A stretch of 64,000 nucleotides of DNA from assembly GCA_964016885.1 (NCBI GenBank), contig OZ024763.1, positions 3,844,001 through 3,908,000 on the forward strand, in the 5' to 3' direction. The position numbers were made by a program, and so were the translations under genes. The stretch is from Eledone cirrhosa. Lineage: Eukaryota. Position 1 is the stretch's first letter; every line of letters begins with the position of its first letter. The notes under the pieces were generated by a model. It was not told where the DNA came from. It ran no database searches and saw only the letters and a list, made by a program, of their open reading frames with translations. Positions 414 through 34,093 of the stretch are shown here, piece by piece.

Positions 414-1380
414 GACTGCTATTTCTAGCAGGTTTACTGCTGTCCTGTAGACGCACAAGAAAAACCGGAAGTGGCAGCCATTAAAAAACTTTAGCTTAAA
501 ATCAGGCAAAAGTTTTTAAACAATAGAAAATTTAATGTAAACAAACCGGGGTGCTTTTGCCAATAAAGATAACTCTTGTCTTACTTAATGGCAAAAATCG
601 AGACAAAAATTTTGTGTGTGTGTCTGTGTGTTATGTTTATAATTTTTAGACGCCATTTTGAAACCCGTACGTGGTCGGTCAACTTACTCGAAATAGTAGT
701 CAAAGAGAGGAGATTTTTTTCACCCGATACAAAAAGTAGGTTTATAAATATTAATTTTCACTATATTTTTAAGGCGGTCTCGTTGGCCGAGTGGTACGGT
801 GCGTTGAGTCTGCTTAGATACTGGTCGGGGTTTCGATCCCGGCCAACGTCTACACATAGGGGGTCTTATTAAACTTTTTCAGTTTTTATACTAAGAGATA
901 AAATAAAAACTGAAAAAGTTTAATAAGACCGCCTATGTGTAGACGTTGGCCGGAATCGAACCCCCAACCAGTATCTCAGCAGACTCAACGCACCGTACCA
1001 CTCGGCCAACGAGACCGCCTTAAAAATATAGTGAAAATTAATATTTATAAACCTACTTTTTGTATCGGGTGAAAAAGAAATCTCCTCTCTTTGACTACTA
1101 TTTCGAGTAAGTCGACCGACCACGTAGGGGCTTCAAAATGGCGTCTATATCTTGTAAACATAACACACAGACACACACACAAAATTTTTGTCTCGATTTT
1201 TGCCATTAAGTAAGACAAGAGTTATCTTTCTTGGCAAAAACACCCTGGTTTGTTTACATTAAATTTTCTATTGTTTAAAAACTTTTGCCTGATTTTAAGC
1301 CAAAGTTTTTTAATGGCTGCTTCTTCCGGTTTTTCTTGTGCGTCTACAGGACAGCAGTAAACCTGCTAGAAATAGCAGTC
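414..1380. repeat. Long palindrome, ~476-bp arms, 13-bp spacer (890-902)
   Basis: GACTGCTATTTCTAGCAGG... at 414 is the reverse complement of ...CCTGCTAGAAATAGCAGTC ending at 1380; mirrored ORFs appear in the track. Confidence 0.95.
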
Positions 1381-1825
1381 ATAGCAACTCACTCACATAT
1401 ATTTATTTATGAGGGATTCTCAACCGGGGGTTCACACCCCACGGGGAACAATTTGAATATAATAGGGGTCAATTTGAAAGTGATATTATACGACCTAACC
1501 TCCTGTTACACTTCGTCTACACATGCTATCGTGTAACTGGCAGCATCTACGAGAAGTTTGTTTACACTTTGCGGTTTGCTTTGATCATCGCTGAATCGCA
1601 GCTTTGTTTAAATAAAGGGTTTCTACTTTATATTACAGTAATAACACTTTTACAAGACTCGGATTGTTTTTATATTAAAGGGGGACATAAACATATTTTA
1701 AATGTTGAGGTGGGGCATGGTGCAGAGAAGGTTTTGAACCACTGATATATATATATTCTTTCTGTTGTTTTTTAAACTCTGAACTCAGCATTTTTCTATT
1801 GTTCGCCGGGATTCTAGCATGTATG

Positions 1826-1887
<62 letters not shown>

Positions 1888-3992
1888 GTCAACCTCACTT
1901 GGCACAGACTCGAAAAAGCCGCCGCTAATCGTAATCGTTGGGGTTATAATTAGACTAAAGTGCTTCCACTGGGCACCATTAGCTGGTTGTGATCATTGGA
2001 GAATTCTTTCTGTACTGAAAGAGCCTACGACTAAAAGATATATATATAGATGTCGAAACGGCACTAGCACAACCGTTGGGGTCCTGAATATTTTCACATA
2101 TATATATGTGTGTATTCTGCGACATTTATAATTACATAAGTAAACATATTTGAATGAAAATATTTGAGCTTTAAATACTTTATTTTTTACCAATAACATT
2201 AAGAAAGGCATGAACAACACCACATGTTAATTACTTTAATATTGAAAGTAGGCTTATAAATATTAAATTCAGCAGATTTTTGTAGCCTGCATGATGGTCT
2301 GGTGTGAGATACCAGAGATGGTGGGGGTCCTGGTTTGGGGCTCAATTCTGGTCATGGGTTACATATAGGGTTTCATGCTTTTTTTTTTTTTTTTTTTTTT
2401 TTTTTCCAGCTCTAGATATAAATATATATATAAGGTAATTTGGTAGAATTGTTAGAACATCAGATAGATTTCTTTGCAGTATTTTTTCCAGTTCCTTACC
2501 TTTCTACCATTCGGGGTCGATAAGTCTTGAATATGTCTAACGTAGCAATAACTGGAGCTACTTAACCAAGTTTTCCCAACCTAGTCGATATCACCTACTG
2601 GTTGGCGATTTAAACTGTTGGCTGGGACAATGACCAACTAGTCAGTAAGATTCGAACTCACTATGTTTGGCGATATATAGTCATAATTTGTTTCAAACTT
2701 CGATCGCGGTTTCAAAACAAGCTTGCTTTCATATATGTGTGCGTGTATGTTCTGCGGCATTTATATTTACAATCATATAAATAGGTATCTATTTATTTAA
2801 ATTTAAATTTAAATTAAAATACTTTATATTTGAATGAAGTTCTGTAAGTAACCTGGTGGCTTAGTTGGCAAGACTGCTCAAATATGTGGCTTCTATTATG
2901 AAGTTATAAGTTCATTCTCTACCCAGGATTGTAGAATTAATTTTATTTAGTTATTATTTAATCAATTATTTTAACAAACAAATTATATCTGTAAAACGCC
3001 AAATATAGTGAGTTCAAACCTGACTGATATGCATGGTATATGTTTATCTTTCATTATACAGCAACACAATACACAGGAACTTATAAAGTTATATATATAT
3101 TGTCCAGGAGTTTCGAGTTTAGTGGGAATTGGTATAACTCTCAATTGGAGCTAGTCTCTGCAAGATAACACCCGATAGTTTATACATGATTATTTAAAGG
3201 TGAACAAAAACCAAAGAACATTGAGCAGCGTTTTTCAACCTTTTTACCCATGTCGATCCCTTGAAATAGTTTTTTATGTCTTGGTTCCCAAATCGTGTGC
3301 TGCAAGATGAAACAAGATGAGCTGCAAAAGACTACGATTAAGTTTTAAGATGTGAAAAGTATAAAACTGAAATTTCATATAAAAGTTCAAATATCGTTAC
3401 AGCCACAAACCTAGGCTCCACACCCCGCAATGCAGAGGCGAGTAAGATAGTACCGAGGCCTGACTCACCTCTTCCACTCCATTGAGACTTCTGCCATACT
3501 TGGTCTCCATACTGCTGATTTCCTCCTTAAAGTCGGGAGGAAAGACGGCAGGAGCCTCGTGAGGAGGGGCGACTATTGTAGCAGGTGTCTCTGGCCTTGC
3601 TCCGAGGTAACGCTTTTACGTTTCTTCCACTGGTTGCGTCTGAGGGACCACTTAGACTGGGGTGAAGTGTCTGTCCCTCCCCCGACTTCTTACTTCTTTT
3701 TTTTTCTCCTTTTCATATTCTTCTCTCTTCTTGCTTATCTCTGCTATACCATGGCATCAAAAACATATATGGTATATGTATGTATGGTATAGGTGTATTT
3801 ATATTTAGGATAGTTATCGAAGGTAAATAGACTGGTTGGAAGAATAACAGTCTTGTTTATGTATATACATATATATATATATATATATGTTTGTGCTTGT
3901 ATTTCCGTAGAAAAGGTAAAGAAAAGAAGAGTGCTCTATGTATTGTACAGAGCTATTTAATTACATAATAAACAACAGAATATAATTATTCC

Positions 3993-5780
3993 ATGCAAAT
4001 AGACTTAGAATGGAAAACATTGAGACAGAGAAGAATGGATAATGAGCGTCGTAGGAGAAATTGCCCAGCAATTAATATTTATGGAAATGTAGAAGAATTT
4101 CATATTAGTGATATGAATGTTTCATGTGATCACTGTGGAGCTTTGAGATTTAGAAATGAAAATTGTAACTGTTGTAATAAAGGAAAGGTTGTGTTGCCTC
4201 CATTGCAAATATACCCTGAGAGACTGAGAAATCTCTTTGAAAGAGGCCAGGAAGCAGTTGATTTCACAGAAACATCTGCAATTAAAACTACATTTCTTTC
4301 ACTTCATTTGGTGTTAAACTTGCCTTACCACCTGGCAGAGGCCCGTATAGCTTTCATATTCAGGGTCAAACATATCACTACACCCCACCTCTGTAACCTG
4401 CAGAAAATACACTACAATATGGCCAGTTATATATTATTGATGGGAATGAAGCTGTGTAGCACAGATTGGAAGTAGCACCAAATAATTGTTTCTGGCACAA
4501 GGCCAGCAATTACCCCAGTGTATTACTGGTACTTTATTCTATCGACCTCATAAGGATGAAAACTAAGTCAACCTTGGAGGGATTTGAACCCAGAACGTAA
4601 AGGGCCATAACCCTATGCTGCAAAGCATGGTGTCTGACACTCTACCGATACTGCCAATCCACCGCCCTAGTACCAACAAATAATGACTGCTCACCACAAA
4701 AAATGACTATGATAAGAGAGGTGTTGCATGAATGTATTCCATATGTCGAAGTGTACAATACAATGCATGGCATCAAACAGCAAAGAGCAAGAAGAGAAAA
4801 TTGTTGTGTACGGAACTGTGAATTAAGATTTAGAAGAGGATCAGATATGAACTGCTATAATTTACCTAATGATAGGTGTTGTTTTGTGGGGATTGAGGGC
4901 ACACCACCTATACAAAGAGATATTATCATCTTTCCTAAAGACATCCTCCTCAGAAAATACCACATAATTCAAGCCACTTGGACCTCATGACCGACTCATA
5001 ATGGTGAATTTTGATGGCATAGTGACATGGAGAGGAATGCAGGACCTGTGTTTGCAATAGACTGACAATGCAGGAGTATTACATATACTGTATAGATTAT
5101 AGAGGAGGATTTAGTGCGATATATAGGGCAGGCAAGTTATTTTAGCAGTATTTAGTGGATGCCTATATGAAGTAGAGGGATGCAGGCTTCAATATTTGAG
5201 GAACAATCAAGCCCAATTGTGAGTGGATGAGTATAATGGTTTAATGAATTATCTAAACAGATGATAACACTGAGCCTTAAGAAATGAAGACAAGATAAGA
5301 AACAGAGAAGACATTGACAGAATTGTGTCAGCAGAAATACCTGCATTGGAAGATGATCCAGTACTACATGAGCAGGTTTAAAAGTTTATGATCCATGGGC
5401 CATGTGGTTCTGGAAACCCTTTTTCCCCATTTATACAAAATGGATTTTTCCAAAAGAACTATCCAAAAACCTACAGAAGGAAAACATTATTGAACCTAAA
5501 TGGATACCCAGAGTACATGAGGTGCAAGACAGGAACTGCAGTGTAAATTGGATGACATTCAGTAGATAACAGGAATGTTGTGTCATTTAATGCCTTTTTG
5601 CTTAAGAAATATTGTGCACATATTAATGTTCAAGTTTGCCCTTCTGTAAAAAGTGTCAAATACCTCTTTAAATATGTTACATAGGGCATGATTGTACATC
5701 TATAGAAGTAATGAATAATGCATTACCTAATGAGGCTCAGAACCAACACAACCATGATGAAATAAGAACCTACCTTTGAG
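3993..5780 (+). mobile_element. Decayed Helitron Rep fragment, interrupted by a SINE-like insert at ~4480-4670
   Basis: CDHCGALRF..CC.KGKVVLPPL N-terminal Cys motif, GRGPYSFHIQGQTYH, YLVDAY..EGCRLQYLRNNQ, EDIDRIVSAEIP..MIHGPCG, LKKYCAHINV.VCPSVKSVKYL, all across frameshifts and stops. Confidence 0.88.
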
Positions 5781-8700
5781 GAGTTTGGCCCCCTCAGCCC
5801 GACGTGCAGCAGAACCTGGGTCAGTCGTAGACTACACCAGGTTGTGGCTGCAGAAGGTGTCGGTGCAAGTGGCATCCCACACGAGGGGTTTGCTGTATAC
5901 TACCAGTAATATGTACAGTGTATATACACTATAATTAGTAAAAAATACACATTATTTTCCTGCAAAAATTTGATTGCAATGTTTTGTTTTCACTGATGTA
6001 TTTTTTGAAAATGTTATTTATTCATTATTAAAATTAAATAATAGCATTCTATATGTGGGTGGGTCCCCTTTATCTCCTGGCAACCAATATTTTTAGACCC
6101 AGTCTGCCACTATATATATATATATGACGTATAGGCACCAAGGAAAAAAAGCACCCAACACTCACTGTAAATGAGGTTGGTGTTTGAAGGGCATCCAGCT
6201 GTAGAATTCAAGCCAGAATCAGTTCCAGTATGAACAAGGCATGGTCAGCCGACCGGACAACAGGACAACCCATCTATCCCATGCTAGCGTGGAAGAACGG
6301 ACGTAAAATGGTGATGATGATTTATATATATTGAGCTTGTTTATCAAGAAACACAAAATTCTAACATATTTGATGTTTTGAATCATTACATTTGTATATA
6401 ACAGCTCCAAATCTCATGTTGGGATGGGGTGACTATAATTTCCACACCTATCTCTAGTGGAAAGAATGCAGGGAAAAGCAGACGTAAAATGATGATGATG
6501 ACACCATGTGGTCTTCAACATGGTGGTTACGTTAGCAGTCTCTATGGATATTGGCAAGTATATTGTATTTTGATTCTATATTTCTCTTAGAATTCTGAGA
6601 CTATAACCTCTGATGATAATTCTGAGTCTCCTGTGGTTTAATTATAATTGATAGTTTGTCTTCGATGATCGATTACATAGATTGATTTTCAACCACACTC
6701 TACAGAATATGAAATAGTGCTATAAGGTCTCTCTAATGACTCCACCGTAAGTACATATTCCTATCTGAAATATATACTTAGTATATATACAATATACTAT
6801 GTTTCCTCTAAGGTATATGGCTCTTTCTCTCTATATATACATATATATTTTTCATTTGATTTATTATGGCTCTGGATAATGATAATAATAATAATAAAAG
6901 ATCAATCTGATTAGTTTCAATTTTTATTAAAAACTCATCAGCTGTCAAGGAAAAAGTGTGTGTGTGTGTGTGGGGGGGGCAGAGAGGAATGGTGCTTCCT
7001 TAATCAGCTTTTCATGGGAATGAGGCTGGGGTATATAGCATTTACTCCTTCCCTATCAGACTCTCATGGACATTAGAGTAGTGAAGGGCATACTAACCCA
7101 TACTGGGGTCACCAAGGCTTTTAGATATTTTAGGAGCTGTCTGGCATTTCAATCATTCTCCCCCCACCAAAAAAAAAAAAAAATAATCATAATGTTCTAC
7201 ATGTGAATGGAGTTTCACTGGAGCAGAAAGAGAAGTTCAAGTACCTCGGGGCTGTGTTCATGAGTGATGGAAGGAAGGAGGCTGAATTTAGTACAAGTAT
7301 TGCACTTATTAGAATATGTGTATGTCTATTGTTGTTATACAGTTATACAAGATTTTTGTGATCCACAAAATCTACAAAATCAAGGCAGATCCAGAAAGAT
7401 TTACAAAAATTCCACAAAAATCCTACAAAAACCTCGCCAAATCCCACAACAATTCCACAAATCTGAGAAATCTGTCAACTTACTTGAAATCCCCATTATC
7501 ACCTTCTGGTTTTATGTCAGTTTCCTCACCTTTGAAAGCCTTGACTTTATATCTAAAACTCCAGAAAACAAAACAAGAGACACAAAGAAACAAGAAAATA
7601 TAATGAACAAGAGAAAACAAGATCTTCACCTCCTCTAATGATTTAGTCAGAAAATATCTATAAAGAGGTTTGTTAATTCGAATGTTTACAGCAGAGGTTC
7701 TCAAAATGGGCACTAAGTGGGGACATTGAGAAGGTCTGAGTGGACGCTGGGGCCTACAGTGGCGGTAGATATGATATAATAGTATATTAAATATCAAATG
7801 ATACATATTATATATAAATATAGTAAAATATAAAATATATAATATCTATTTATACATAGTATATATTATATTATATTATTATATATAAATTAACGATTTC
7901 ATTTATTATATATTATTTACAATTTGTGTGTAGGTAAGTCTCTGTAAATATGGTTGGGGACATGCTGAGTGTATTACATGACCGTGAGGGGGCGGGGTAG
8001 TGGCCCAAACAGTTTGACAACCTCTGGTTTACACTATCTTTACTAGTGGATAGATCATTGTGAATATTTGCAGTGATAGAATAAAGACTTTAATATTTAA
8101 TGTCATGCTATCATAATACTGTTTTCTACTTTTTAAGAATGTCTTGCTAATGGGTTTATGTGGTTTGTTAATTCAAATGTTTATAGCATCTTTACTAGGG
8201 TACAGATCATTGCGAACATTTGTAGTATAAAAGTAAAAACTTCAATATTTATTAATGTGATACAGTAATAATGTTGTTTTATATGTTTAAGCAATATTTT
8301 GCTAATGTGGTTTCATGTGGGACAGGACGTTAAGAGCCAATCTATCTCTATATTACTAAATGTCTGTGATTGCTTGCTGTGATTGCAGTAGGTGATAAGA
8401 AAGCGGAAGTAACAGTAGTAACAGTGGCAAAAAGAAAGGGAGGCGACAGTGGAAAATACAAAAATAGATAGAGTGAAGGAGAGAAAAAGAGACAAAATAA
8501 GTAGATAGATAAAAATGTAAAGTATTGTAGGAAGCTGATGATTCAGATGATGCTAAAGTTCCATTTTCTTGTTAGTTTACTCTCTCGGAGAATAAATGAT
8601 GTACGAATGTGACAAGTAGAGAGATGCTGTGCTTAAAAGTACCCATCTAACCCATGCAAGCGTGGAAAAACAGACACAAAAATGATGAGGACGATGATGA

Positions 8701-9139
8701 TATATGTATATGTATGTATATATATATATATGATACAATACATACATACATATATACCTATATACATATATAGATATACTCACCGCAAGGTGACACACTT
8801 GGCCACAAATGTGTAGGCTAGAAGGGTTCCTATAGACATCATATTCACCAGTTCAGTGAGATCAAACATGAGAGCTGTCAAACCTACATTGATGGTGTTT
8901 TGGGTGAGGTAGAACAAAGAGAGAAAGTTTGATATTAAGTTGGGTCACAAGGTTACAGAGAAGGGGGCTGTATTAAAGTTGGGGTCACAAGGTTACAGAG
9001 AAGGGGGGTGGCTGTATTAAAGTTGGGGTTGCAGGTTACAGAGAAGGGGGGGGACTGTATTAAAGTTGGGATCACAATGTTACAGAGAAGGGGGGGGGGG
9101 CTGTATTAAAGTTAGAATCAGAGAGTATGGGGCGATATA

Positions 9140-9505
9140 TCTATGCAGTGTAAATGTACGTGAAAGACCCAGCATAAATGTGTTGAGTGAGAAACTGTGT
9201 CTGAGAGGGATAGAATGTAGTGTATGGGAGAGGGCACTGAGGTGGTATGGACATGTGATGCGCTTGGAGGATGACTGATGGGTGAAGAAGTGCCAGGAAA
9301 TGCCAGTTGAAGGAAGACGTGGTAGAAGTAGACCATGAAAAACATTGTCGGAGGTGGTGAGAACAGACCTCAGATCATTGAAACTCACGGTGGAGATGAC
9401 GAAGGACCGTGACGAGTGGAGAGATGCTCTTCTGAATAAGACCCGTCCCACCCTTGCAGGCAGGGAAAAGCGGACATAAAATGATGATGATGATGATGAT
9501 GATGA
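9140..9505 (+). mobile_element. LINE (RTE-like) 3' fragment with (ATG)n tail (copy at ~25585-25945)
   Basis: RLRWYGHVMRM...EGRRGRSRP.KT...DRDEWR, the C-terminal pattern of non-LTR RT ORFs. Confidence 0.75.
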
Positions 9506-9519
9506 TATATATATCATCA

Positions 9520-9851
9520 TCATTTCATTTTACGTCCGCTTTTTCCCTGCTTGCAAGGGTGGGACGGGAACTGATTCTGGCTTGATTTCTACAGCTGGAT
9601 GCCCTTCCTAACACCAACCTCATTTACAGTGAGTGCTGGGTGCTTTTTTGCCGTGGCACCTCCACAACCACTTTGCAGTGGAATGATATGGACCCCAGTC
9701 CCTATCATCTCATTTCTACAGCTGAGTAAACTGGAGCAATGTGAAATAAAGTGTTTTGCTCAAGGAAACAACACATCACCCGGTCTGAGAATTGAACTCA
9801 CAACCTTTCGATTGCAAGGTCAATGCTCTAACCACTAAGCCATGTGCCTCC

Positions 9852-9855
<4 letters not shown>
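9520..9855 (-). mobile_element. Composite SINE, near-identical to 56845-57176
   Basis: ORFs 9599..9838 and 56923..57162 are almost identical; tRNA-like A/B boxes on the minus strand (TGGCTTAGTGG, GTTCAATTC). Confidence 0.8.
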
Positions 9856-9884
<29 letters not shown>

Positions 9885-10723
9885 AAGAGAGAGAGTATTA
9901 GTTTAACTTAGAGCCACAAGATCACAGAGAAAGGTTATAGTGGTGTAAAGAGGCAAGCAGACAGGCAGCCAACCACACAGACAGACAGACAGATAGCTAA
10001 TCAGATAGACTGATAGACAAACAGATGGACATCTAAGCAGACAAACAAATAGTCGGACAGACAGACAGATATGGCCCTAAAGGTACAAAAGAAATGGAAT
10101 GACCTGAAAACAATCCAGCTACCAATGTTGCTAAAACAGGGGTCTTGAATCTTTCGGACACACTTGAGAGTTGACCAAAGATGATTCGGTCCTCTGCCAT
10201 GGCATATACCACCCTGGGTAGGGGAAATATTGAACCAACCATGCTGAAATATAGTGGGGTGGATATATAGAGTAATACAACGGTTGACATACTATATATC
10301 CCTTGTATAATGTATTAAATGAATCGATATATAGTATATATATATATATATATATATAGAGATATATTTATTTTTTTATGTGGTTTACCCCTGGTGGTAG
10401 GGTCCGTACCGTAGATAGAAGTCAATGTAATCTGATGGCGAGTAATCCAGTGAAATCCATAGAAAGGTTCCGTGTTCCACTGAGTTAATTCCTTAGATAC
10501 AGAGTCAGATATTAGGTATTAATTTAACAATGAAAATAAGGAGATGGTCTGATCGAACCTATATATGAAGTCTGATAGTATACGGTAATATAACTGCTAT
10601 AGATCAGACAATATGTCAATATGATCAACCCTCTGAAATGATTGTAAAACAATGATAAATAGGTAAAATAACCTGACTTGATTTTGGCTTGGTTTCTCCG
10701 ACTGGACATCCTTCCTAACGCCA

Positions 10724-12840: not shown

Positions 12841-12925
<85 letters not shown>

Positions 12926-13068
12926 GATTGTGGGATGACAGAATTGGGGAGAAATATTTGCTGAGCACATCACTGTAGCATCAATTCTACAACACACACG
13001 TATATATTTAGGGGCACGGCAGATCAGATTGTTGTGAAATCAACCCTTAAAAGATGACAAATTGAATC

Positions 13069-13602
13069 GAGTTATGTTTTATCAAAGCCCCAGATAATTA
13101 AAACCCAATGTTGACCCCTTTTGTAGTATGAATTAGACGGAGAATGCCATGAACGTCGCCACGTAACTTTTGCTTTGAAATAGAAAGTAGGTTTATAAAT
13201 ATTAATTGTCAGTATGTATTTGAAGTTGTCTCGGTAGCCTAGTGGTATCAGGGACGGTGGAGATCCTGGTCTGGAGTTCAATCTCGGGTAAGATCTACAC
13301 TGAACATTTTAATTTTTTGTCTCATAAGATAAAAAAAATATTAACAATTAGTAACATCCTCTAAATGTAGTTGTGGACCAAGCTTAAACCCCCGGCCAAG
13401 TTTCCCACCATCTCTTATACTTTCCACTACGCCACCAAGGCGCTTTTAAAAACAGACTACATATTATTATATATAAACCTACTTTCTGTTTCGAAGCGAA
13501 ATTGATGTGGTGGCCTTCATGGCTTTCCCGTCTCTGTTAGTCTCGCAACAAAGGGGTCGACCTTGTCTTTCATCCCACTGGAACTTTGATAAATTATAAC
13601 TT
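13069..13602. repeat. Degenerate ~530-bp palindrome sharing the AAAGTAGGTTTATAAATATTAATT core with the large palindrome (second copy 29195-29729)
   Basis: GAAATAGAAAGTAGGTTTATA pairs with TATAAACCTACTTTCTGTTTC; GACCCCTTT pairs with AAAGGGGTC; TTTATCAAAG pairs with CTTTGATAAA. Confidence 0.75.
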
Positions 13603-14589
13603 GCTTTTGTTATTCATAGCTCTAGGGTTTATTTGAACCTACATTGACTACCTGCAATAATCTCTACTAACTTCAAATCTGCCATACCTAAGTATTGTGT
13701 GGGAGAAAGATTTGAACTTGATGCGACGTTCTCGTAAGTTGATAAACCTGATTCCTATATAATATAATATACATATAATTATAATATGTATATAATTGTA
13801 ATGAAAAATAACTTATTAAATAAATTTTAATTATATTTAAAAACGATAACAAAAACAAATGAATGAAAGTAAGGAATTATTTTTATTTAGTAATTATATT
13901 TTTATTGTTTGTTTTACTGCATTAACTGCTGAATGTGTCTTTTATTTTTGTTTTTTCTTACCATTTACCATGGCTGCAACGAAACTGGATTATTATCAAG
14001 GATTACTAGATGATGGCATTTCTTTATTGTACTATTTTTCAAAACAATGGACATCGAGACATTTGTCAAAATACCTAGGATAAAGGTAACGTCTGTCTGT
14101 ATGCAACATTTCATTTTTAAATTCTTGTGTTCTTATGGGTTAAATTTAAGCCGCCCAGAACAGCAATGCCAGAACCAATAATCAAGGCAGGGAGTCAGTA
14201 TCGAAAGTAACCATATTCAGGAGGTACGAATAATCTAAAAAGAATTTTTTTTAATAAGTTAAACAATGTTCTTTAAAAAAAAAAAAAAAAACGATTAAAG
14301 TTTCATTATTGCTGAAAAGACCTCCATAGCATCAAATCTACAACACTCACACACAAAAAGATTTAAATCAAACACTCTAATGTAAAGACAATCATAGCCA
14401 CAATTTAATGTCTGACAACATTTCACGATATAAATAAAGCCACATAAGTAGAGTTTAATGATTCACAATTAATTTGCTCATATCTATTTTAATCATACAT
14501 ATGCTGCAGATATATATTTTCAATGGTTTACGTTTACATTATGATTTTGTTGAAAGTTTCTGATGTATTTAGTGTCTTAGAGTTACGTC

Positions 14590-14780: not shown

Positions 14781-16383
14781 TTATAAGCAGCCAAATAGAT
14801 TTCAACTTTCTTTTGGAATAATGTATTAACATTTACAAGTTTATTCAGAATTCGTAGTTATAGAAATGACATTGTTTCGTGTAGAAAATCTATGATATTA
14901 TCCCGATTAATATTATACGCTGTCAATATGAAATAGGAAGGCATGGTGAATAAATGTCCGACTTTATATTTAGCCTACTACAAACACACATCGAAAGTGT
15001 TCAGTAAATAAAAGCACTATCGAACGGAACTGTATACAATTGTAAGCTGTATCATAGCAAAATTATCTCTGTAAAATATCATTAAAAAATTATGAGGAAA
15101 TAGTTTAATAGAGCGTAGACTAAACCATAGGTATATCCAAGACAGTTGAAGTGTTGCGAGATTCACTTTGCTTTTTCCTTTGAAACTACATATTGTATGT
15201 TCAAATATTCGAAGTTGAAATCAACGTTAGTTCAATGAGATATGAACTTGTGTAGGTAACATGGAACCCATATGTAACCGCTCGACTTGCTCACAAGGAC
15301 GACCCAATAGAACACACAGATGTGTATGAGTTATGTATAACTATACTAGATATAGACGTCAACAGGGAGACTGTACATGGCCAATTGTAAGTTCGAATCA
15401 ACTATAAACCGATGAGGAATATTGAAATACTTTAAATAAAACACAAATGTGTGTGTGTGTTAAGTATCTCTCTCTCTCTTTCACACTTCTTAATGTGACG
15501 AGTTGATCTTTTTATATGGTCGTATAGTTTGAGTACTCTTGACTTACACACACACATATATATATATTTATATATATACACATAGGAGAAAGTATGACCC
15601 CCGATGGCAGAGCTCAAGCCGTTTCGACGGCTATTTCTGCCGTCGGGGGTCATACTTTCTCCTATTACCGACTCTGTTACCCTAAGTATTGAGTACTCTG
15701 GTGCGATATGGTCCATCTGGTTCCTTACCACAACTCGTTCGTTATATATATATATATGAATGACGCATGGCAAATTTAATTTACGATACATTAGTGCAGT
15801 ACTGCCAATCCCGTTGTTGTGGCATCGAATAAACACTAAACTGTTAAGAAGAAAGTTTGAAAAGGTGTCTTAATATATTAAAAAGCATATTCGTGTGTGT
15901 GTCTGTGTGTTATGTGTAACTATACTAGATATAAACACTAAATTCCCCTCTTTAAACTATCTCTCATACACACGTTTTCACGCATTCCTATGTATATAGG
16001 TATTGTAGTTATGAAGTAACTACATACTGTATGATCAAATATATTCGAAGTACTGTCAATCACGTTGTGGTTTCCACTAAACATTAAACTCTTAACAAAA
16101 AAGTCTGAAAATGTCTTAATATAATCAAAGGCATACTTGTGTGTGTGTCTGTGTGTAATGCATAACTATACTAGATATAAACACGGATCTCCCTTTCTCA
16201 CACAAACACATCCTTTGTATAGGAATGGCGTAATGACAGGAGTTGTATTTATGAAGCATCTGTAACTACATATTGTATGTTCAAATATTCGAAGTTGAAA
16301 TCACCGTTAGTTCAATGAGATATGAACTTGTGTAGGTAACATGGAACCCATATGTAACCGGTCGACTTGCTCACAAGAACGAC

Positions 16384-16885: not shown

Positions 16886-17851
16886 GACTGCTATTTCTAG
16901 CAGGTTTACTGCTGTCCTGTAGACGCACAAGAAAAACCGGAAGTGGCAGCCATTAAAAAACTTTGGCTTAAAATCAGGCAAAAGTTTTTAAACAATAGAA
17001 AATTTAATGTAAACAAACCAGGGTGTTTTTGCCAAGAAAGATAACTCTTGTCTTACTTAATGGCAAAAATCGAGACAAAAATCTTGTGTGTGTGTCTGTG
17101 TGTTATGTTTACAATTTTTAGACGCCATTTTGAAACCCGCACGTGGTTTGTCGACTTACTCGAAATAGTAGTCAAAGAGAGGAGATTTTTTTCACCCGAT
17201 ACAAAAAGTAGGTTTATAAATATTAATTTTCACTATTTTTTTAATGCGGTCTCGTTGGCCGAGTGGTACGGTGCGTTGAGTCTGCTGAGATACTGGTCGG
17301 GGTTTCGATTCCGGCCAACGTCTACACATAGGGGGTCTTATTAAACTTTTTCAGTTTTTATTTTATCTCTTAGTATAAAAACTGAAAAAGTTTAATAAGA
17401 CCCCCTATGTGTAGACGTTGGCCGGAATCGAAACCCCGACCAGTATCTCAGCAGACTCAACGCACCGTACCACTCGGCCAACAAGACCGCCTTAAAAAAA
17501 TAGTGAAAATTAATATTTATAAACCTACTTTTTGTATCGGGTGAAAAAAAATCTCCTCTCTTTAACTACTATTTCGAGTAAGTCGACCGACCACGTACGG
17601 GTTTCAAAATGGCGTCTAAAAATTGTAAACATAACACACAGACACACACACAAAATTTTTGTCTTGATTTTTGCCATTAAGTAAGACAAGAGTTATCTTT
17701 CTTGGCAAAAACACCCTGGTTTGTTTACATTAAATTTTCTATTGTTTAAAAACTTTTGCCTGATTTTAAGCCAAAGTTTTTTAATGGCTGCTTCTTCCGG
17801 TTTTTCTTGTGCTTCTACAGGACAACAGTAAACCTGCTAGAAATAGCAGTC
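16886..17851. repeat. Long palindrome, unit B copy, spacer 17362-17374
   Basis: Same arms as 414-1380, spacer in the opposite orientation. Confidence 0.95.
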
Positions 17852-18305: not shown

Positions 18306-18346
<41 letters not shown>

Positions 18347-23387: not shown

Positions 23388-23419
<32 letters not shown>

Positions 23420-23749: not shown

Positions 23750-25945
23750 ATTAGAATATGTGTATGTCTATTGTTGTTATACAGTTATACAAGATTTTTG
23801 TGATCCACAAAATCTACAAAATCAAGGCAGATCCAGAAAGATTTACAAAAATTCCACAAAAATCCTACAAAAACCTCGCCAAATCCCACAACAATTCCAC
23901 AAATCTGAGAAATCTGTCAACTTACTTGAAATCCCCATTATCACCTTCTGGTTTTATGTCAGTTTCCTCACCTTCGAAAGCCTTGACTTTATATCTAAAA
24001 CTCCAGAAAACAAAACAAGAGACACAAAGAAACAAGAAAATATAATGAACAAGAGAAAACAAGATCTTCACCTCCTCTAATGATTTAGTCAGAAAATATC
24101 TATAAAGAGGTTTGTTAATTCGAATGTTTACAGCAGAGGTTCTCAAAATGGGCACTAAGTGGGGACATTGAGAAGGTCTGAGTGGACGCTGGGGGCCTAC
24201 AGTGGCGGTAGATATGATATAATAGTATATTAAATACCAAATGATACATATTATATATAAATATAGTAAAATATAAAATATATAATATCTATTTATACAT
24301 AGTATATATTATATTATAATATATAAATTAACGATTTCATTTATTATATATTATTTACAATTTGTGTGTAGGTAAGTCTCTCTGTAAATAGGGTTGGGGA
24401 CATGCTGAGTGTATTACATGACCGTGAGGGGGCGGGGTAGTGGCCCAAACAGTTTGACAACCTCTGGTTTACACTATCTTTACTAGTGGATAGATCATTG
24501 TGAATATTTGCAGTGATAGAATAAAGACTTTAATATTTAATGTCATGCTATCATAATACTGTTTTCTACTTTTCAAGAATGTCTTGCTAATGGGGTTTAT
24601 GTGGTTTGTTAATTCAAATGTTTATAGCATCTTTACTAGGGTACAGATCATTGCGAAAATTTGTTGTATAAAAGTAAAAACTTCAATATTTATTAATGTG
24701 ATACAGTAATAATGTTGTTTTATATGTTTAAGCAATATTTTGCTAATGTGGTTTCATATGGGACAGGACGTTAAGAGCCAATCTATCTCTATATTACTAA
24801 ACGTCTGTGATTGCTTGCTGTGATTGCAGTAGGTGATAAGAAAGCGGAAGTAACAGTAGTAACAGTGGCAAAAAGAAAGGGAGGCGACAGTGGAAAATAC
24901 AAAAATAGATAGAGTGAAGGAGAGAAAAAGAGACAAAATAAGTAGATAGATAAAAATGTCAAGTATTGTAGGAAGCTGATGATTCAGATGATGCTAAAGT
25001 TCCATTTTCTTGTTAGTTTACTCTCTCGGAGAGTAAATGATGTACGAATGTGACAAGTAGAGAGATGTTGTGCTTAAAAGTACCCATCTAACCCATGCAA
25101 GCGTGGAAAAACAGACACAAAAATGATGAGGACGATGATGATATATGTATATGTATGTATATATATATATATATGAGACCATACATATATACATATATAC
25201 ATATATACATATATAGATATACTCACCGTAAGATGACACACTTGGCCACAAATGTGTAGGCTAGAAGGGTTCCTATAGACATCATATTCACCAGTTCAGT
25301 GAGATCAAACATGAGAGCTGTCAAACCTACATTGATGGTGTTTTGGGTGAGGTAGAACAAAGAGAGAAAGTTTGATATTAAGTTGGGTCACAAGGTTACA
25401 GAGAAGGGGGCTGTATTAAAGTTGGGGTCACAATGTTACAGAGAAGAGGGGGGGGGCTGTATTAACATTGGGATCCCAAGGTTACAGAGTAGGGGGGGGG
25501 GGCTGTATTAAAGTTGGGGTCAGAATGTTACAGAGAAGGGCGGGGGACTGTATTAAGGTTAGAATCAGAGAGTATGGGGCGATATATCTATGCAGTGTAA
25601 ATGTGCGTGAAAGACCCAGCATAAATGTGTTGAGAGAGAAACTGTGTCTGAGAGGGATAGAATGTAGTGTATGGGAGAGGAGACTGAGGTGGTATGGACA
25701 TGTGATGCGCATGGAGGATGACTGATGGGTGAAGAAGTACCAGGAAATGCCAGTTGAAGGAAGACGTGGTAGAAGTAGACCATGAAAAACATGGGCGGTG
25801 GTGGTGAGAACAGACCTCAGATCATTGAAACTCACGGTGGAGATGACGAAGGACCGTGACGAGTGGAGAGATGCTGTGCTGAATAAGACCCGTCCCACCC
25901 TTGCAAGCAGGGTAAAGCGGACGTAAACTGATGATGATGATGATG

Positions 25946-26041
<96 letters not shown>

Positions 26042-26827
26042 TATTAGTTTAACTTAGAGCCACAAGATCACAGAGGAAGGTTGTAGTGGTGTAAAGAGGC
26101 AGGCAGACAGGCAGCCAACTACACTGACAGACAGACAGATAGCTAATCAGATAGACTGATAGACAAACAGATGGACATCTAAGCAGACAAACAAATAGTC
26201 GGACAGACAGACAGACAGATATGCCCCTAAAGGAACAAAAGAAATGGAATGACCTGAAAACAATCCAGCTACCAATGTTGCTAAAACAGGGGTCTTGAAT
26301 CTTTCGGACACACTTGAGAGTTGACCAAAAATGATTCGGTCCTCTGCCATGGCATATACCACCCTGGGTAGGGGAAATATTGAACCAACCATGCTGAAAT
26401 ATAGTGGGGTGGATATATAGAGTAATACAACGGTTGACATACTATATATCCCTTGTATAATGTATTAAATGAATCGATATATAGTATATATATATATATA
26501 TATAGAGAGATATATTTATTTTTTTATGTGGTCTACCCCTGGTGGTAGGGTCCGTACCGTAGATAGAACTCAATGTAATCTGATGGCGAGTAATCCAGTG
26601 AAATCCATAGAAAGGTTCCGTGTTCCACCGAGTTAATTCCTTAGATACAGAGTCAGATATTAGGTATTAATTTAACAATGAAAATAAGGAGATGGTCTGA
26701 TCGAACCTATATATGAAGTCTGATAGTATACAGTAATATAACTGCTATAGATCAGACAATATGTCAATATGATCAACCCTCTGAAATGATTGTAAAACAA
26801 TGATAAATAGGTAAAATAACCTGACTT
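23750..26827 (-). pseudogene. Duplicated CAT gene fragment with exon copies 26254-26393, 25227-25326, 23926-23994
   Basis: Second copy of 46730-50060, with the same 3-nt deletion and substitutions as 7308-10679. Confidence 0.9.
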
Positions 26828-28967
26828 GATTTTGGCTTGGTTTCTACGACTGGACATCCTTCCTAACGCCAACCACTTTACAGTATGTACTGGGTGTTTT
26901 TTTTGCTGCTCGCCTACACGACCACTTGACAGTATGTACTGGGTATTTTTTACTGCCCGCCAACACGACCACTTTACAGTGTGTACTGGGTGTGTTTTGC
27001 TGCTCGCCTACACGACCACTTTACAGTGTGTACTGGGTGTATTTTGCTGCTCGCCTACACGACCACTTTACAGTGTGTACTGGGTGTATTTTGCTGCTCG
27101 CCTACCCGACCACTTTACAGTGTGTACTGGGTGTGTTTTGTGCTCGTCTACACGACCACTTTACAGTGTGTACTGGGTGTTTTTTGTGCTCGTCTACACG
27201 ACCACTTTACAGTGTAGACTGGACGCTCACTTTTGTCATGACACCTATATGACCACTACAGTGTGGGCTGGGCTCTTTTGGTGTGACTCCAGGGGGTGGG
27301 GGATCACTTTATAGAGGAGGTGGGAAACTTGGGAGGGGTAGAGAATATGCTTTGGGAAATTGGGGACGTAGGTACAAGAGAGGTTTATGAGAGGAGAGAT
27401 GGTAGGGAATGGCGTTGCCAGCTAAGTATAGAGGGCGGGTCTTATGTAATACTTCACAACACCAGAGGTGAAGGTCCTGTGAGGTGTAATTGTGAAAGGT
27501 CAGCTCTTATTACCTCATCCCAAGTTTTCCTAGGCCTGCCTACTCCATGGCTACCACCAACTTTGAGTACTCTGCATCTTTTTATACAGTTGGCATCCTT
27601 TATACGCATCACATATCCTTACCAACACAATCTCCTCTCCTGCACACAACATCTGATCCCTCTTATGTCTAATTTATCGCGTATTTCATTAATGTTTTGT
27701 CATTTGCGTATATTGCTATTACACATCCATCGAAGTATGGAGGCTTCATTTCTTTCCAATCTTCGCAGGTCCTATTTTTTCGCAATATTAGGACAACATG
27801 ACTCTCCCCAAATATAACATTAAGTTTAGATTATTCGTAACTTGTGTGTGTCTACGTTTAATTAAGACATTGCCTTGTTTACTGCTATCGTCACACATTA
27901 AAATATGGCTGTGATTGTCTTTGCTTTCGTCTGTTTGTTTCAAATCATTTAATACCGTTTGTTTTTCTTCAAATATTGTTTACTTTTTATAAAACTAAAT
28001 TTAGATTAACGGCGTTATTTGTTTTGAAGGTTTTTTTTTAAATATGAAATCGTGTGTTGAAAGAGATATTGTTATATTCGGGGAAGGTCGTGTTGTCCTC
28101 ATATTGCCCCAAAATATAACAATAAGTTTATATTATTCGTAACTCGTCCGTGTGTCTACGTTTGATTAAGACACCGCTTTATTTACTGGTGTTGACACTT
28201 TTGTTGTAAACAGGTTAAATTTGATATATTAACACATCAGACATTTTTCTTCAAAATTTGGTTTGTCTTATATTCCAAATATTACTGCTAGATGTCTCTG
28301 TAAAGATTCCATTTCAATCAATTTCTAATTTCAATTGTATACTGTTGAAGATGAAGTCATTTGTCCTTATAATCACCAGCTTGTCTCAAATTAATTCATT
28401 TTGTTGCTTCGTTCATTCCACGTTCTATATTAATTTAGGATTTTGTTCTAATGTAATAACATTTTTATTTTCAAAGACTTACATTCTGTTTGATTCTTTC
28501 TCGTGTGTATTGTTATCTGTTGTATAAAAAATGTATGTGAAGGGGAAAAAAATAACACGCCTTTCTTTAACCGCTGCACAAAGCTAACTGACGGTGTTTA
28601 GTAAGACTGGTAAGTACTCGACAGTGGTAAACATCATTTATATACCGTGTAAATCGGAGAGATGAACCAAACCTGGATATATTACTCTTTTTTCCCCCCA
28701 ACATTTTCCGAGGCCCTGTCCTTCATGATTCAGCAGTGAGACAGAGTGACAGGGTTTCAAGCGCTACCAACAATTGCAATAGGCTATATTTAACAAGAAA
28801 CTGTTATGTCGTGGTTATTGCTATAATGTGTAGTGTGTGTTTCCATCTTTAGCTGGGATTGTAGAATTACTTTTATTTAATTGTTAACAGAGATATGATG
28901 TATATAGCGTTGTTGTACGTTTAAATCATACAGACACACACTTACTCACGTATGTGTACACACACAC

Positions 28968-29035
<68 letters not shown>

Positions 29036-31666
29036 GAGAAATGATTGTGGGATGACAGAATTGGGGAGAAATATTTGCTGAGCACATCACTATAGCATCA
29101 ATTCTACAACACACACGTATATATTTAGGGGCACGGCAGATCAGATTGTTGTGAAATCAAGGAAATCAACCCTTAAAAGATGACAAATTGAATCGAGTTA
29201 TGTTTTATCAAAGCCCCAGATAATTAAAACCCAATGTTGACCCCTTTTGTAGTATGAATTAGACGGAGAATGCCATGAACATCACCACGTAATTTTTGCT
29301 TTGAAATAGAAAGTAGGTTTATAAATATTAATTGTCAGTATGTATTTGAAGTTGTCTCGGTAGCCAAGTGGTGTCAGAGACGGTGGAGATCCTGGTCTGG
29401 AGTTCAATCTCGGGTAAGATCTACACTGAACATTTTAATTGTTTGTCTCATAAGATAAAAAAAAATATTAACAATTAATAACATCCTCTAAATGTAGTTG
29501 TGGACCAAGCTTAAACCCCCGGCCAAGTTTCCCACCATCTCTTATACTTACCACTACGCCACCAAGGCGCTTTTAAAAACAGACTACATATTATTATATA
29601 TAAACCTACTTTCTGTTTCGAAGCGAAATTGACGTGGTGGCCTTCATGGCTTTCCCGTCTCTGTTCGTCTCGCAACAAAGGGGTCGACCTTGTCTTTCAT
29701 CCCACTGGAACTTTGATAAATTATAACTTGCTTTTGTTATTCATAGCTCTAGGGTTTATTTGAACCTACATTGACTATCTGCAATAATCTCTACTAACTT
29801 CAAATCTGCCATACCTAAGTATTGTGTGGGAGAAAGATTTGAACTTGATGCGACGTTCTCGTAAATTGATAAACCTGATTCCTATATAATATAATAGACA
29901 TATAATTATAATATGTATATAATTGTAATGAAAAATAACTTATTAAACAAATTTTAATTATATTTAAAAACGATAACAAAAACAAATGAATGAAAGTAAG
30001 GAATTATTTTTATTTAGTAATTATATTTTTATTGTTTGTTTTACTGCATTAACTGCTGAATGTGTCTTTTATTTTTGTTTTTTCTTACCATTTACCATGG
30101 CTGCAACGAAACTGGATTATTATCAAGGATTACTAGATGATGGACTTTCTTTATTGTACTATTTTTCAAAACAATGGACATCGAGACATTTGTCAAAATA
30201 CCTAGGATAAAGGTAACGTCTGTCTGTATGCAACATTTCATTTTTAAATTCTTGTGTTCTTATGGGTTAAATTTAAGCCGCCCAGAACAGCAATGCCAGA
30301 ACCAATAATCAAGGCAGGGAGTCAGTATCGAAAGTAACCATATTCAGGAGGTACGAATAATCTAAAAAGAATTTTTTTTAATAAGTTAAACAATGTTCTT
30401 AAAAAAAAAAAAGAAACGATTAAAGTTTCATTATTGCTGAACAGACCTCCATAGCATCAAATCTACAACACTCACACACAAAAAGATTTGAATCAAACAC
30501 TCTAATGTAAAGACAATCGTAGCCACAATTTAATGTCTGACAACATTTCACGATATAAATAAAGCCACATAAGTAGAGTTTAATGATTCACAATTTATTT
30601 GCTCATATCTATTTTAATCATACATATGCTGCAGATATATATTTTCAATGGTTTACGTTTACATTATGATTTTGTTGAAAGTTTCTGATGTATTTAGTGT
30701 CTTAGAGTTACGTCCCTTAGTGTCTTCGCGGCGTGGAGTTGTCCTTTTAAATTCTGAGTTCAAATCCCGCCGAGGTTAGCTTTCCTTTTCATCTTTAAGC
30801 AATCCATAAAATAAAGTACCAGTAACGCACTGGGGTCGATTTAATCGACTTCCCTTCCCCCCCAAAAAATTGCTGGCCTTGTGTCTATTGTAGAAATCAA
30901 TATTTCTTATAAGCAGCCAAATAGATTTACACTTTCTTTTGGAATAATGTATTAACATTTACAAGTTTATTCAGAATTCGTAGTTATAGAAATGACATTA
31001 TTTCGTGTAGAAAATCTATGATATTATCCCGATTAATATTATACGTTGTCAATATGAAATAGGAAGGCATGGTGAATAAATGTCCGACTTTATATTTAGC
31101 CTACTACAAACACACATCGAAAGTGTTCAGTAAATAAAAGGCACTATCGAACGGAACTGTATACAATCGTGAGATGTATCATAGCAAAATTATCTCTGTA
31201 AAATATCATTAAAAAATTATGAGGAAATAGTTTAATAGAGCGTAGACTAAACCATAGGCATGTCCAAGACAGTTGAAGTGTTGCGAGATTCACTTTGCTT
31301 TTTCCTTTGAAACTACATATTGTATGTTCAAATATTCGAAGTTGAAATCAACGTTAGTTCAATGAGATATGAACTTGTGTAGGTAACATGGAACCCATAT
31401 GTAACCGCTCGACTTGCTCACAAGGACGACCCAAAAGAACACACAGATGTGTATGAGTTATGTATAACTATACTAGATATAGACGTCAACAGGGAGACTG
31501 TACATGGCCAATTGTAAGTTCGAATCAACTATAAACCGATGAGGAATATTGAAATACTTTAAATAAAACACAAATGTGTGTGTGTGTTAAGTATCTCTCT
31601 CTCACACTTCTTAATGTGACGAGTTGATCTTTTTATATGGTCGTATAGTTTGAGTACTCTTGACTT

Positions 31667-31709
<43 letters not shown>

Positions 31710-32499
31710 CACATAGGAGAAAGTATGACCCCCGATGGCAGAGCTCAAGCCGTTTCGACGGCTATTTCTGCCGTCGGGGGTCATACTTTCTCCTATTACC
31801 GACTCTGTTACCCTAAGTATTGAGTACTCTGGTGCGATATGGTCCATCTGGTTCCTTACCACAACTCCTTCGTTATATATACATATATATGAATGACGCA
31901 TGGCAAATTTAATTTACGATACATTAGTGCCGTACTGCCAATCCCGTTGTTGTGGCATCGAATAAACACTAAACTGTTAAGAAGAAAGTTTGAAAAGGTG
32001 TCTTAATATATTAAAAAGCACATTCGTGTGTGTGTTTGTGTGTTATGTGTAACTATACTAGATATAAACACTAATTTCCCCTCTTTAAACTATCTCTCAT
32101 ACACACGTTTTCACGCATTCCTATGTATAGGTATTGTAGTTATGAAGTAACTACATACTGTATGATCAAATATATTCGAAGTACTGTCAATCACGTTGTG
32201 GTTTCCATTAAACATTAAACTCTTAACAAAAAAGTCTGAAAATGTCTTAATATAATCAAAGGCATACTTGTGTGTGTGTCTGTGTGTAATGCATAACTAT
32301 ACTAGATATAAACACGGATCTCCCTTTCTCACACAAACACATCCTTTGTATAGGAATGGCGTAATGACAGGAGTTGTATTTATGAAGCATCTGTAACTAC
32401 ATATTGTATGTTGAAATCACCGTTAGTTCAATGAAATATGAACTTGTGTAAGTAACATGGAACCCATGTGTAACCGGTCGACTTGCTCACAAGAACGAC

Positions 32500-33078
32500 C
32501 AAACAAAACACATAAATGTGTGTGTGTGTTATGTATTTATATACTAGATATCCACGTCAACAGGAAGACTGTAGATGGCCAATTGAAAGTTCGAATCAAC
32601 TATAAACCGATGAGGAGTTTTGAAAAACTTTAAATAAAACACATAAATGTGTGTCTGTGTGTTATATATAACTATATTAGATATAGACGTCAACAGGAAG
32701 ACTGTAGATGGCCAATTGTAGGTTCGAATCAACTATAAACCAATGAGGAGTTTTGAAAACCTTTAAATAAAACACATAAATGTGTGTGTGTCTGTGTGTT
32801 ATATATAACTATACTAGATATAGACGTCAACAGGAAGACTGTAGATGGCCAATTATAGGTTCGAATCAACTATAAACCAATGAGGAGTTTTGAAAAACTT
32901 TAAATAAAACACATAAATGTGTGTGTGTTATATATAACTATACTAGATATAGACGTCAACAGGAAGACTGTAGATGGCGAATTGTAAGTTCGAATCAACT
33001 ATAAACGGATGAGGAGTTTTGAAAAACTTTAAATAAAACACATAAATGTGTGTGTGTATGTGTGTTATGTATATAAGA
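32500..33078. repeat. ~135-bp VNTR, 4 copies
   Basis: Unit starts at ~32545, 32678, 32814, 32944. Confidence 0.88.
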
Positions 33079-33129
33079 TATGGGAAGCCCCCTACGTTGT
33101 CGGTCGACTTGCTCGAAATTGTAGCCAAA

Positions 33130-34093
33130 GACTGCTATTTCTAGCAGGTTTACTGCTGTCCTGTAGACACACAAGAAAAACCGGAAGAAGCAGCCATTAA
33201 AAAACTTTGGCTTAAAATCAGGCAAAAGTTTTTAAACAATAGAAAATTTAATGTAAACAAACCAGGGTGTTTTTGCCAAGAAAGATAACTCTTGTCTTAC
33301 TTAATGGCAAAAATCGAGACAAAAATTTTGTGTGTGTGTCTGTGTGTTATGTTTACAAGATATAGACGCCATTTTGAAACCCGTACGTGGTCGGTCGACT
33401 TACTCGAAATAGTAGTCAAAGAGAGGAGATTTTTTTCACCCGATACAAAAAGTAGGTTTATAAATATTAATTTTCACTATATTTTTAAGGCGGTCTCGTT
33501 GGCCGAGTGGTACGGTGCGTTGAGTCTGCTGAGATACTGGTCGGGGGTTCGATTCCGGCCAACGTCTACACATAGGGGGTCTTATTAAACTTTTTCAGTT
33601 TTTATTTTATCTCTTAGTATAAAAACTGAAAAAGTTTAATAAGACCCCCTATGTGTAGACGTTGGCCGGAATCGAACCCACGACCAGTATCTCAGCAGAC
33701 TCAACGCACCGTCCCACTCGGCCAACGAGACCGCCTTAAAAATATAGTGAAAATTAATATTTATAAACCTACTTTTTGTATCGGGTGAAAAAAATCTCCT
33801 CTCTTTGACTACTATTTCGAGTAAGTCGACCGACCACGTACGGGTTTCAAAATGGCGTCTATATCTTGTAAACATAACACACAGACACACACACAAAATT
33901 TTTGTCTCGATTTTTGCCATTAAGTAAGACAAGAGTTATCTTTCTTGGCAAAAACACCCTGGTTTGTTTACATAAATTTTCTATTGTTTAAAAACTTATG
34001 CCTGATTTTAAGCCAAAGTTTTTTAATGGCTGCTTCTTCCGGTTTTTCTTGTGCGTCTACAGGACAGCAGTAAACCTCCTAGAAATAGCAGTC
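33130..34093. repeat. Long palindrome, unit C copy, spacer 33606-33618
   Basis: Same arms; mirrored 98-aa ORFs 33292..33588(+) and 33636..33932(-). Confidence 0.95.

What the first reader, a model, noticed from the sequence alone, without database searches (positions are those of the whole stretch)
890..33618. Flip-flop spacer in a 1-kb palindrome
Seen: the 13-bp centre reads ACTAAGAGATAAA in unit A (890-902) but its exact reverse complement TTTATCTCTTAGT in units B (17362-17374) and C (33606-33618), while the flanks keep the same orientation. Established: spacer inversion results from crossover between inverted arms, or from hairpin nicking and re-copying like the flip/flop termini of parvoviruses and poxviruses. 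Inference: this palindrome has undergone inversion since the duplication and may be an invertible or cruciform-resolving site.
Basis: partly seen in the sequence, partly recalled or inferred. Interest (0 to 1): 0.75.

Follow-up and report, generated by a model that had tools for sequence, protein, structure and literature searches.

The report
Flipping loop in a repeat palindrome
The 13-base centre of a 1-kb mirror-image repeat points both ways among its copies, likely because ordinary DNA copying and repair swap strands between the two near-identical arms, a known effect here seen in a high-copy family of predicted small-RNA gene pairs that we found no description of.

Summary
Observation confirmed; the flip is a known kind of event. 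The genome holds 16 full young copies. Of 11 tandem units with the same right flank, 7 read ACTAAG and 4 read TTTATC, both forms in both clusters; this needs 2-3 inversions. Arms are more alike within a locus than at random (p=0.0008). An older subfamily with ~72%-identical arms has 1 of 109 centres flipped, with a template-switch signature. So flips track arm identity, not a programmed cycle. No enzyme gene was found in the unit (0 of 53 ORFs hit Pfam), and 0 of 21 loci of the flanking Helitron carry the centre; the parvovirus/poxvirus analogy is unsupported. Each arm holds a predicted Pol III gene (TATA-like motif, A box, B box, T-run) from a family with 3,047 exact motif hits. Solo copies mostly end at the T-run, so the flip is likely silent. 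No read spans unit A; one short-read contig supports the phase of a sister haplotype. The scan had no note on this sequence.

The parts
414..889 (+). Unit A left arm (476 bp)
890..902 (+). Unit A spacer, ACTAAG orientation (majority state)
903..1380 (-). Unit A right arm (478 bp)
732..750 (+). Conserved upstream motif ending in a TATA-like stretch about 30 nt before the predicted start; mirror copy at about 1042-1060
   Evidence: the TATA label is recalled knowledge
771..879 (+). Predicted ~108-nt Pol III unit: A box 784-794, B box 829-839, T-run 875-879; mirror unit at about 913-1021 on the minus strand, so the two converge on the spacer
   Evidence: transcription inferred, no RNA data
414..621 (-). 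Inverted copy of the Helitron 5' region forming the outer left arm
1172..5778 (+). 5' part of a high-copy, broken Helitron-family element; supplies the outer right arm and the right flank
   Evidence: relatives continue into a Pif1 2B domain, E 1e-14, and a CTAG-like 3' end
53..364 (+). ~135-bp tandem array, part of the longer (up to ~3.8 kb) arm sequence shared with dispersed copies
16886..17851 (.). Unit B palindrome; spacer 17362-17374 inverted; inner arms identical for 108 bp
33130..34093 (.). Unit C palindrome; spacer 33606-33618 inverted; inner arms identical for 61 bp
13037..13634 (.). Older member of the same family with diverged arms (66%); repeated at 29163-29761

Best explanation
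The spacer lies in both orientations among copies, and it most likely flips passively when host DNA synthesis, in replication or repair, jumps from one arm to the near-identical opposite arm, copies through the 13-base loop backwards and jumps back. Shown: both orientations, repeated events, arm homogenisation, dependence on arm identity, and one old copy with the footprint of such a switch. Inferred: the template-switch route for B and C; further shuffling by unequal exchange between tandem units; that the arms are Pol III genes ending at T-runs before the spacer, so the flip changes no transcript; and that hairpin formation or Pol III fork stalling promotes the switch. A passive host route of any kind (this plus the crossover rival) has about 0.85 probability.
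For: 7 vs 4 orientations in 11 units. 3 parsimony changes on the right-flank tree, 2 if mosaicism is allowed. One-way copying between arms: within-locus distance 3.06 vs 4.22 for random pairs over the inner 170 bp, p=0.0008; 41 positions where both arms carry the minor allele; the C24:4.795 Mb copy has 0 arm substitutions over 438 bp and a deletion in both arms. C's left arm carries right-arm-type alleles out to 437 bp. Old copy L034 has an inverted spacer plus about 30 bp of the left arm re-copied on the right. Old subfamily 1 of 109 flipped vs young 4 of 11 (Fisher p=0.0002; p=0.02 counting 2 events). PMC8604942 (passages) describes intermolecular template switching giving reversible spacer inversion with arm homogenisation.
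Against: Outer-arm markers are swapped reciprocally between A and the 3.829 Mb unit although both have the same spacer orientation, which fits crossover or inter-unit exchange better. A's inner arms differ at 5 of 100 positions, so A shows no fresh switch. Many of the 41 symmetric alleles are shared by descent. Young units are not independent samples, and L034 entered through a search with the young sequence. B and C are not clearly sisters or non-sisters (bootstrap 51-91). No reads phase A, B or C.
Confidence: 0.57

Rival explanations
1. Reciprocal crossover between the two arms on one chromatid (non-allelic homologous recombination, possibly after cruciform cleavage) inverts the spacer together with part of the arms; conversion is a separate process.
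For: Reciprocal placement of G223 versus AAA244-247/A326 in A and the 3.829 Mb unit; A64 stays on the 3' side of ACTAAG in 4 loci, one with different flanks. Several arm types occur in mixed pairs around the same centre. PMC8327919 (passages): about 50% spacer inversion between primate X palindromes, ascribed to this route.
Against: B and C show non-reciprocal, homogenised arms. The one flipped old copy has a duplicated arm piece, not a clean swap.
Confidence: 0.28
2. A dedicated nickase or resolvase (for example the HUH Rep of the adjacent Helitron) cuts the hairpin and regenerates it in flip or flop form, as in parvovirus or poxvirus ends.
For: AT-rich 20-bp inner stem with a 13-nt loop (-16 kcal/mol). 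The centre is conserved across old subfamilies. A Helitron-family element abuts the right arm.
Against: 108 of 109 old centres keep one orientation. 0 of 21 Helitron loci carry the centre. 0 of 53 ORFs in one period hit Pfam at E<=0.001. 0 matches in viral contigs. The hairpin is internal, with variable outer ends.
Confidence: 0.07
3. The orientation in one or more units is a consensus or phasing error caused by the palindrome.
For: No read set laid here phases A, B or C; both RAD runs laid have about zero depth at the centre. B's inner arms are identical for 108 bp.
Against: Both forms occur in both clusters, in runs of neighbours. Arms carry private variants 29-75 bp from A's spacer. A 156-bp short-read contig (depth 68) has the same spacer phase with the 8- and 31-bp variants as the 5.914 Mb copy (3 differences from it, 6 from A).
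Confidence: 0.06

Closest known systems
Inverted-repeat spacer inversion by intermolecular template switching (yeast; PMC8604942, passages read)
   Same: Exact reversal of a short spacer, arm homogenisation, recurrence in parallel lineages, preference for perfect arms.
   Different: There the arms are about 9-16 bp with 2-5 bp spacers in coding DNA; here 0.3-1.1 kb arms in a multicopy non-coding repeat, with paralogues available as donors.
Spacer inversion in primate X palindromes (PMC8327919, passages read)
   Same: Frequent, apparently neutral inversion of the spacer between near-identical arms; rearrangements concentrated at the centre.
   Different: Arms over 8 kb and over 99% identical with testis genes; here 0.5 kb arms at 96-98% and a 13-bp spacer.
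Chloroplast small hairpin inversions, 5-50 bp (as summarised in PMC12928735, passages read; the primary paper was not read)
   Same: A loop of this size flips between stem arms and gives flip-flop orientations.
   Different: 11-24 bp stems in plastid DNA; here nuclear, with long arms.
AAV inverted terminal repeat flip/flop (PMC11575299, passages read)
   Same: Two mutually inverted forms of a hairpin centre.
   Different: There it is a terminal origin with a terminal resolution site, random orientation and rep/cap genes; none of these is met here.
snaR Pol III RNA genes of great apes (PMC3337139, passages read); analogy for the arm module only
   Same: Small-RNA units that spread mainly by DNA-level duplication into tandem arrays, including two inverted clusters, with few retrocopies.
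   Different: snaR is Alu-derived and shown to be expressed. Here the units are convergent pairs, expression is untested, no common fold was found, and homology is not claimed.

Membership tests
Palindrome with recurrent spacer inversion | Spacer is the exact reverse complement while flanks stay collinear | tested here: met
Palindrome with recurrent spacer inversion | More than one event | tested here: met
   Both forms in both clusters; 3 parsimony changes, at least 2
Palindrome with recurrent spacer inversion | Arm-to-arm homogenisation | tested here: met
Palindrome with recurrent spacer inversion | Orientation polymorphic at one locus among individuals or cells | not testable with these tools
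   No long reads; RAD runs do not cover the centre
Template-switch inversion | Non-reciprocal copying that accompanies the flip | tested here: inconclusive
   Clear in L034, compatible in B and C, but reciprocal marker swaps also occur
Parvovirus/poxvirus flip-flop terminus | Hairpin at the end of a linear replicon | tested here: not met
   Internal centre with arms on both sides and variable outer ends
Parvovirus/poxvirus flip-flop terminus | Linked nickase, resolvase or viral genes | tested here: not met
   0 of 53 ORFs of 60 aa or more (low-complexity ORFs excluded) hit Pfam; 0 viral contig matches; an enzyme acting in trans is not excluded
Parvovirus/poxvirus flip-flop terminus | Random orientation among replicated copies | tested here: not met
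   108 of 109 fixed in the old subfamily
Helitron terminus or origin | Centre present in Helitron copies | tested here: not met
   0 of 21 loci
Pol III type-2 gene (arm module) | A box, B box and T-run at fixed spacing | tested here: met
   84, 59 and 88 of 97 modules chosen only on the upstream 16-mer; shuffles 1.4%, 0.3% and 32%; box patterns recalled
Pol III type-2 gene (arm module) | Transcript detected or Pol III occupancy | not testable with these tools
   Indirect only: 5 of 6 solo copies end at 876-883 and 2 of 6 begin at 771
tRNA or known Rfam RNA | Cloverleaf or Rfam match at threshold | tested here: not met
   ARAGORN 0 at default; only sub-threshold hairpin hits among the rows shown; 0 at gathering score
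SINE | Spread mainly by retrotransposition without upstream sequence | tested here: not met
   3,047 exact hits of the upstream motif show it travels with the unit; only 6 solo copies of the young arm
TIR MITE (carrier of some old copies) | Short TIRs flanked by TA | tested here: inconclusive
   A 14-bp TIR, mostly beside TA, bounds both ends of several old copies such as L080, L118, L122; others lack it, and none bounds the young palindromes
Penelope-like inverted insertion or retrozyme | Fixed outer ends with variable inner junction; hammerhead motif | tested here: not met
   Fixed centre with variable outer ends; no hammerhead among the 150 of 221 Rfam rows shown

The most novel reading that the evidence does not exclude
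The palindromes belong to an undescribed high-copy family of convergently paired Pol III small-RNA genes. Their head-on geometry stalls a replication fork from either side just past the central hairpin, so the element keeps rebuilding itself as a palindrome: overwriting one arm with the other, flipping the loop and swapping flanks. The spacer orientation would then be a built-in counter of transcription-driven template switching in an animal germline.
Probability: 0.15. Interest if true: 0.62.

Novelty: new member of a known kind. Interest (0 to 1): 0.3.

Why it matters
The flip itself is expected behaviour for a short loop between near-identical arms and probably changes no transcript. Its value is as a natural experiment. 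The homologous hairpin is almost frozen when the arms are about 72% alike and flips roughly 100 times or more faster per unit of divergence when they are about 97% alike (rough arithmetic). The host family is more interesting than the flip: thousands of predicted Pol III units, paired, carried in MITEs and Helitrons, and arranged in 99%-identical 4.6-kb arrays. Three library searches found no description of it, but most subscription papers and repeat databases were not searched.

Tried and rejected
Penelope/retrozyme reading (lead from earlier scan notes and PMC8557442): dropped, because the flanking element proved to be a Helitron and the architecture is the reverse of an inverted 5'-truncated copy; hammerhead-like motifs seen by eye had no Rfam support. 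A Mb-scale palindrome centred on the 4.795 Mb copy: rejected, the inverted repeat ends about 1.14 kb from the centre. tRNA gene: none at default, and relaxed ARAGORN calls are as common in flanking DNA. Conserved RNA fold across 19 hand-cut modules, some imperfectly trimmed: 0 pairs. Expression: no RNA holder listed. Reads: 3 contig sets from one sample and 2 of 3 RAD runs were laid; none phases A, B or C. Protein search with the Cys-rich ORF at 4008-4472: no hit among longer proteins and no Pfam hit; its Helitron label rests on collinear relatives. The first 6.5-kb flank tree was distorted by non-homologous sequence and was redone on 1,891 and then 1,733 columns. The ancestral orientation and the exact number of flips could not be fixed. 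bioRxiv 10.64898/2026.07.22.740005: a term search returned only one reference-list passage. No supplements were read.
Full report
Observation. The palindromes span 414-1380, 16886-17851 and 33130-34093. Their arms differ by 21 of 482, 15 of 482 and 8 of 481 bases. The unique right flanks are collinear at about 97% over 5.9 kb. The window lies in a 3.0-Gb genome. An earlier scan note calls it an octopus genome; I did not check this.

Other copies. A search with the centre returned 16 full young copies, from 40 of 59 candidates scored; a search with the inner arm scored all 22 candidates and found the same set. Five form a tandem cluster that includes A, B and C, six form a second cluster in the opposite orientation 1.6 Mb away, and five are single. 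Of the 11 tandem units, 7 read ACTAAG and 4 read TTTATC relative to the shared right flank: 3:2 in the first cluster and 4:2 in the second. The two TTTATC units of the second cluster also have a shorter left arm. On a right-flank tree (1,733 columns, length 0.105) orientation changes 3 times by parsimony. The units are mosaics, so 2 is the safe minimum. A has the majority state, so B and C are the likely derived ones.

Arms exchange sequence. Over the inner 170 bp, arms of one locus differ by 3.06 bases on average against 4.22 for random pairings (p=0.0008, 5,000 shuffles). At 41 positions both arms carry the minor allele, against 145 arm differences; many of the 41 are inherited through duplication. 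The copy at 4.795 Mb has no arm substitution over 438 bp and a deletion in both arms, which points to one-way copying. Against a pure copying model, outer-arm markers sit reciprocally in A and the 3.829 Mb unit, which fits crossover or unequal exchange between units. Several arm types occur in mixed pairs, and arm length runs from 0.3 to over 3 kb.

Natural control. The centre belongs to a far larger family: a 16-base arm motif has 3,047 exact hits against 3 for the control. An older subfamily has two distinguishable arms, 138-154 of 200 bases alike in four measurements. I scored 120 such loci after dropping 10 duplicates. Sixteen had no scorable centre, and the rest gave 109 centres: 101 standard, 7 standard with one arm unscorable, and 1 flipped. 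The flipped copy, L034, also carries about 30 bases of its left arm re-copied in reverse on the right, the expected footprint of a template switch; it came in through a search with the young sequence. Young versus old is 4 of 11 versus 1 of 109 (p=0.0002, or 0.02 if the young flips are 2 events). Old copies average 84.9% identity to one copy (70 of 82 loci). Assuming a star-like history, my rough arithmetic gives a flip rate per unit divergence 100 times or more higher in the young set. A programmed flip-flop would not leave 108 of 109 homologous centres fixed.

No dedicated machinery. None of 53 ORFs in one period hit Pfam at E<=0.001, and the centre pattern has no match in viral contigs. The outer right arm and right flank (1172-5778) are the 5' part of a high-copy element whose relatives continue into a Pif1 2B domain and end in a CTAG-like terminus, so I read it as a Helitron. 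None of 21 loci of this element carries the centre, so the junction is chimeric. An enzyme acting in trans is not excluded.

What the arms are. Each inner arm has a conserved upstream motif with a TATA-like end, an A box, a B box and a T-run just before the spacer (box patterns recalled). In 97 modules chosen only on the upstream motif, 84 had an A box, 59 a B box and 88 a T-run at fixed offsets, against 1.4%, 0.3% and 32% in shuffles. Six solo copies of the young inner arm lack the upstream motif; 5 end at 876-883 and 2 start at 771. I infer a ~108-nt Pol III transcript that was occasionally retro-copied. If so, both transcripts stop before the spacer and the flip is silent. There is no tRNA or Rfam identity and no shared fold. 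Modules also occur inside a TA-flanked TIR element, singly in the Helitron and in 4.6-kb tandem arrays at 98-99.7% identity.

Artefact. No data here phase A, B or C. One 156-bp contig from a public short-read run spans the centre, with 6 differences from A and 3 from the 5.914 Mb copy; it shares that copy's variants at 8 and 31 bp on the same side of the spacer. That supports the assembly's phasing at one related haplotype only, and the run may come from the assembled sample.

Comparison. Reversible spacer inversion by template switching (PMC8604942), about 50% spacer inversion in primate X palindromes (PMC8327919) and 5-50 bp hairpin inversions in plastids (PMC12928735) cover the phenomenon; I read passages of each. 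AAV flip/flop needs a terminal origin and a resolution site (PMC11575299, passages). PMC11790251 (passages) mentions fork stalling at tRNA genes as a stimulus of copy-number change; that it acts here is inference. snaR (PMC3337139, passages) is an analogy for the module. PMC8557442 (passages) gave the Penelope structure that I tested and rejected. Searches found no description of this family; one search listed 15 of 34 papers and I saw only the listing.

Verdict. The flip is real with high probability, recurrent and passive, a new instance of a known kind. The host family deserves a separate look. Interest 0.30.

Noticed in passing
G000 C26 3.19-3.24, 10.93, 18.52-18.93 Mb; C18 29.02-29.03 Mb (L295-L297): 4.56-4.59 kb tandem arrays at 98-99.7% unit identity that carry several Pol III-type modules and are related to window 12.1-14.2 kb; no Rfam hit and no ORF of 110 aa or more passing the filter. 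They look like a concertedly evolving small-RNA gene array.
   Followed up: partly
window 1172-5778; relatives L307-L317: High-copy, internally deleted Helitron family (1,835 candidates) in tandem arrays, carrying a single Pol III-type module near its 5' end and often an inverted partial copy of that end.
   Followed up: partly
window 10036-10314, 26147-26464, 49051-49368, 52429-53213, 62089-62514 (minus strand): Exons of an amino-acid permease gene (Pfam AA_permease; cationic-transporter-like by recall). One exon lies inside the 16-kb tandem unit, so part of the gene is multiplied.
   Followed up: no
L118:562-2424 and others (L054, L080, L121, L122, L126): A TA-flanked element with a 14-bp TIR has captured the old asymmetric palindrome, once or in tandem; the same TIR ends also occur without it.
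   Followed up: partly
L017-L019, L021-L023: Solo copies of the inner arm, some fused at the T-run to other repeats; two are joined to the same tRNA-like repeat head, as if reverse transcription switched templates.
   Followed up: partly
L020 / L224 (C21:6.854 Mb): A second symmetric subfamily, 75% identical to the young one, with its own near-perfect arms; suggests symmetric palindromes arose more than once.
   Followed up: no
L029 (C18:40.73 Mb): 282-bp tandem array of one module plus the central hairpin and a stub of the second arm.
   Followed up: no
window 57750-60869: A 72-bp satellite that switches orientation near 58540-58870, forming an inverted array.
   Followed up: no
window 15581-15666: An 86-bp hairpin repeat, also seen in arms of dispersed copies.
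   Followed up: no
L318:6454-8462 (minus strand): Broken reverse transcriptase plus GIY-YIG element (Pfam), Penelope-like, unrelated to the finding.
   Followed up: no
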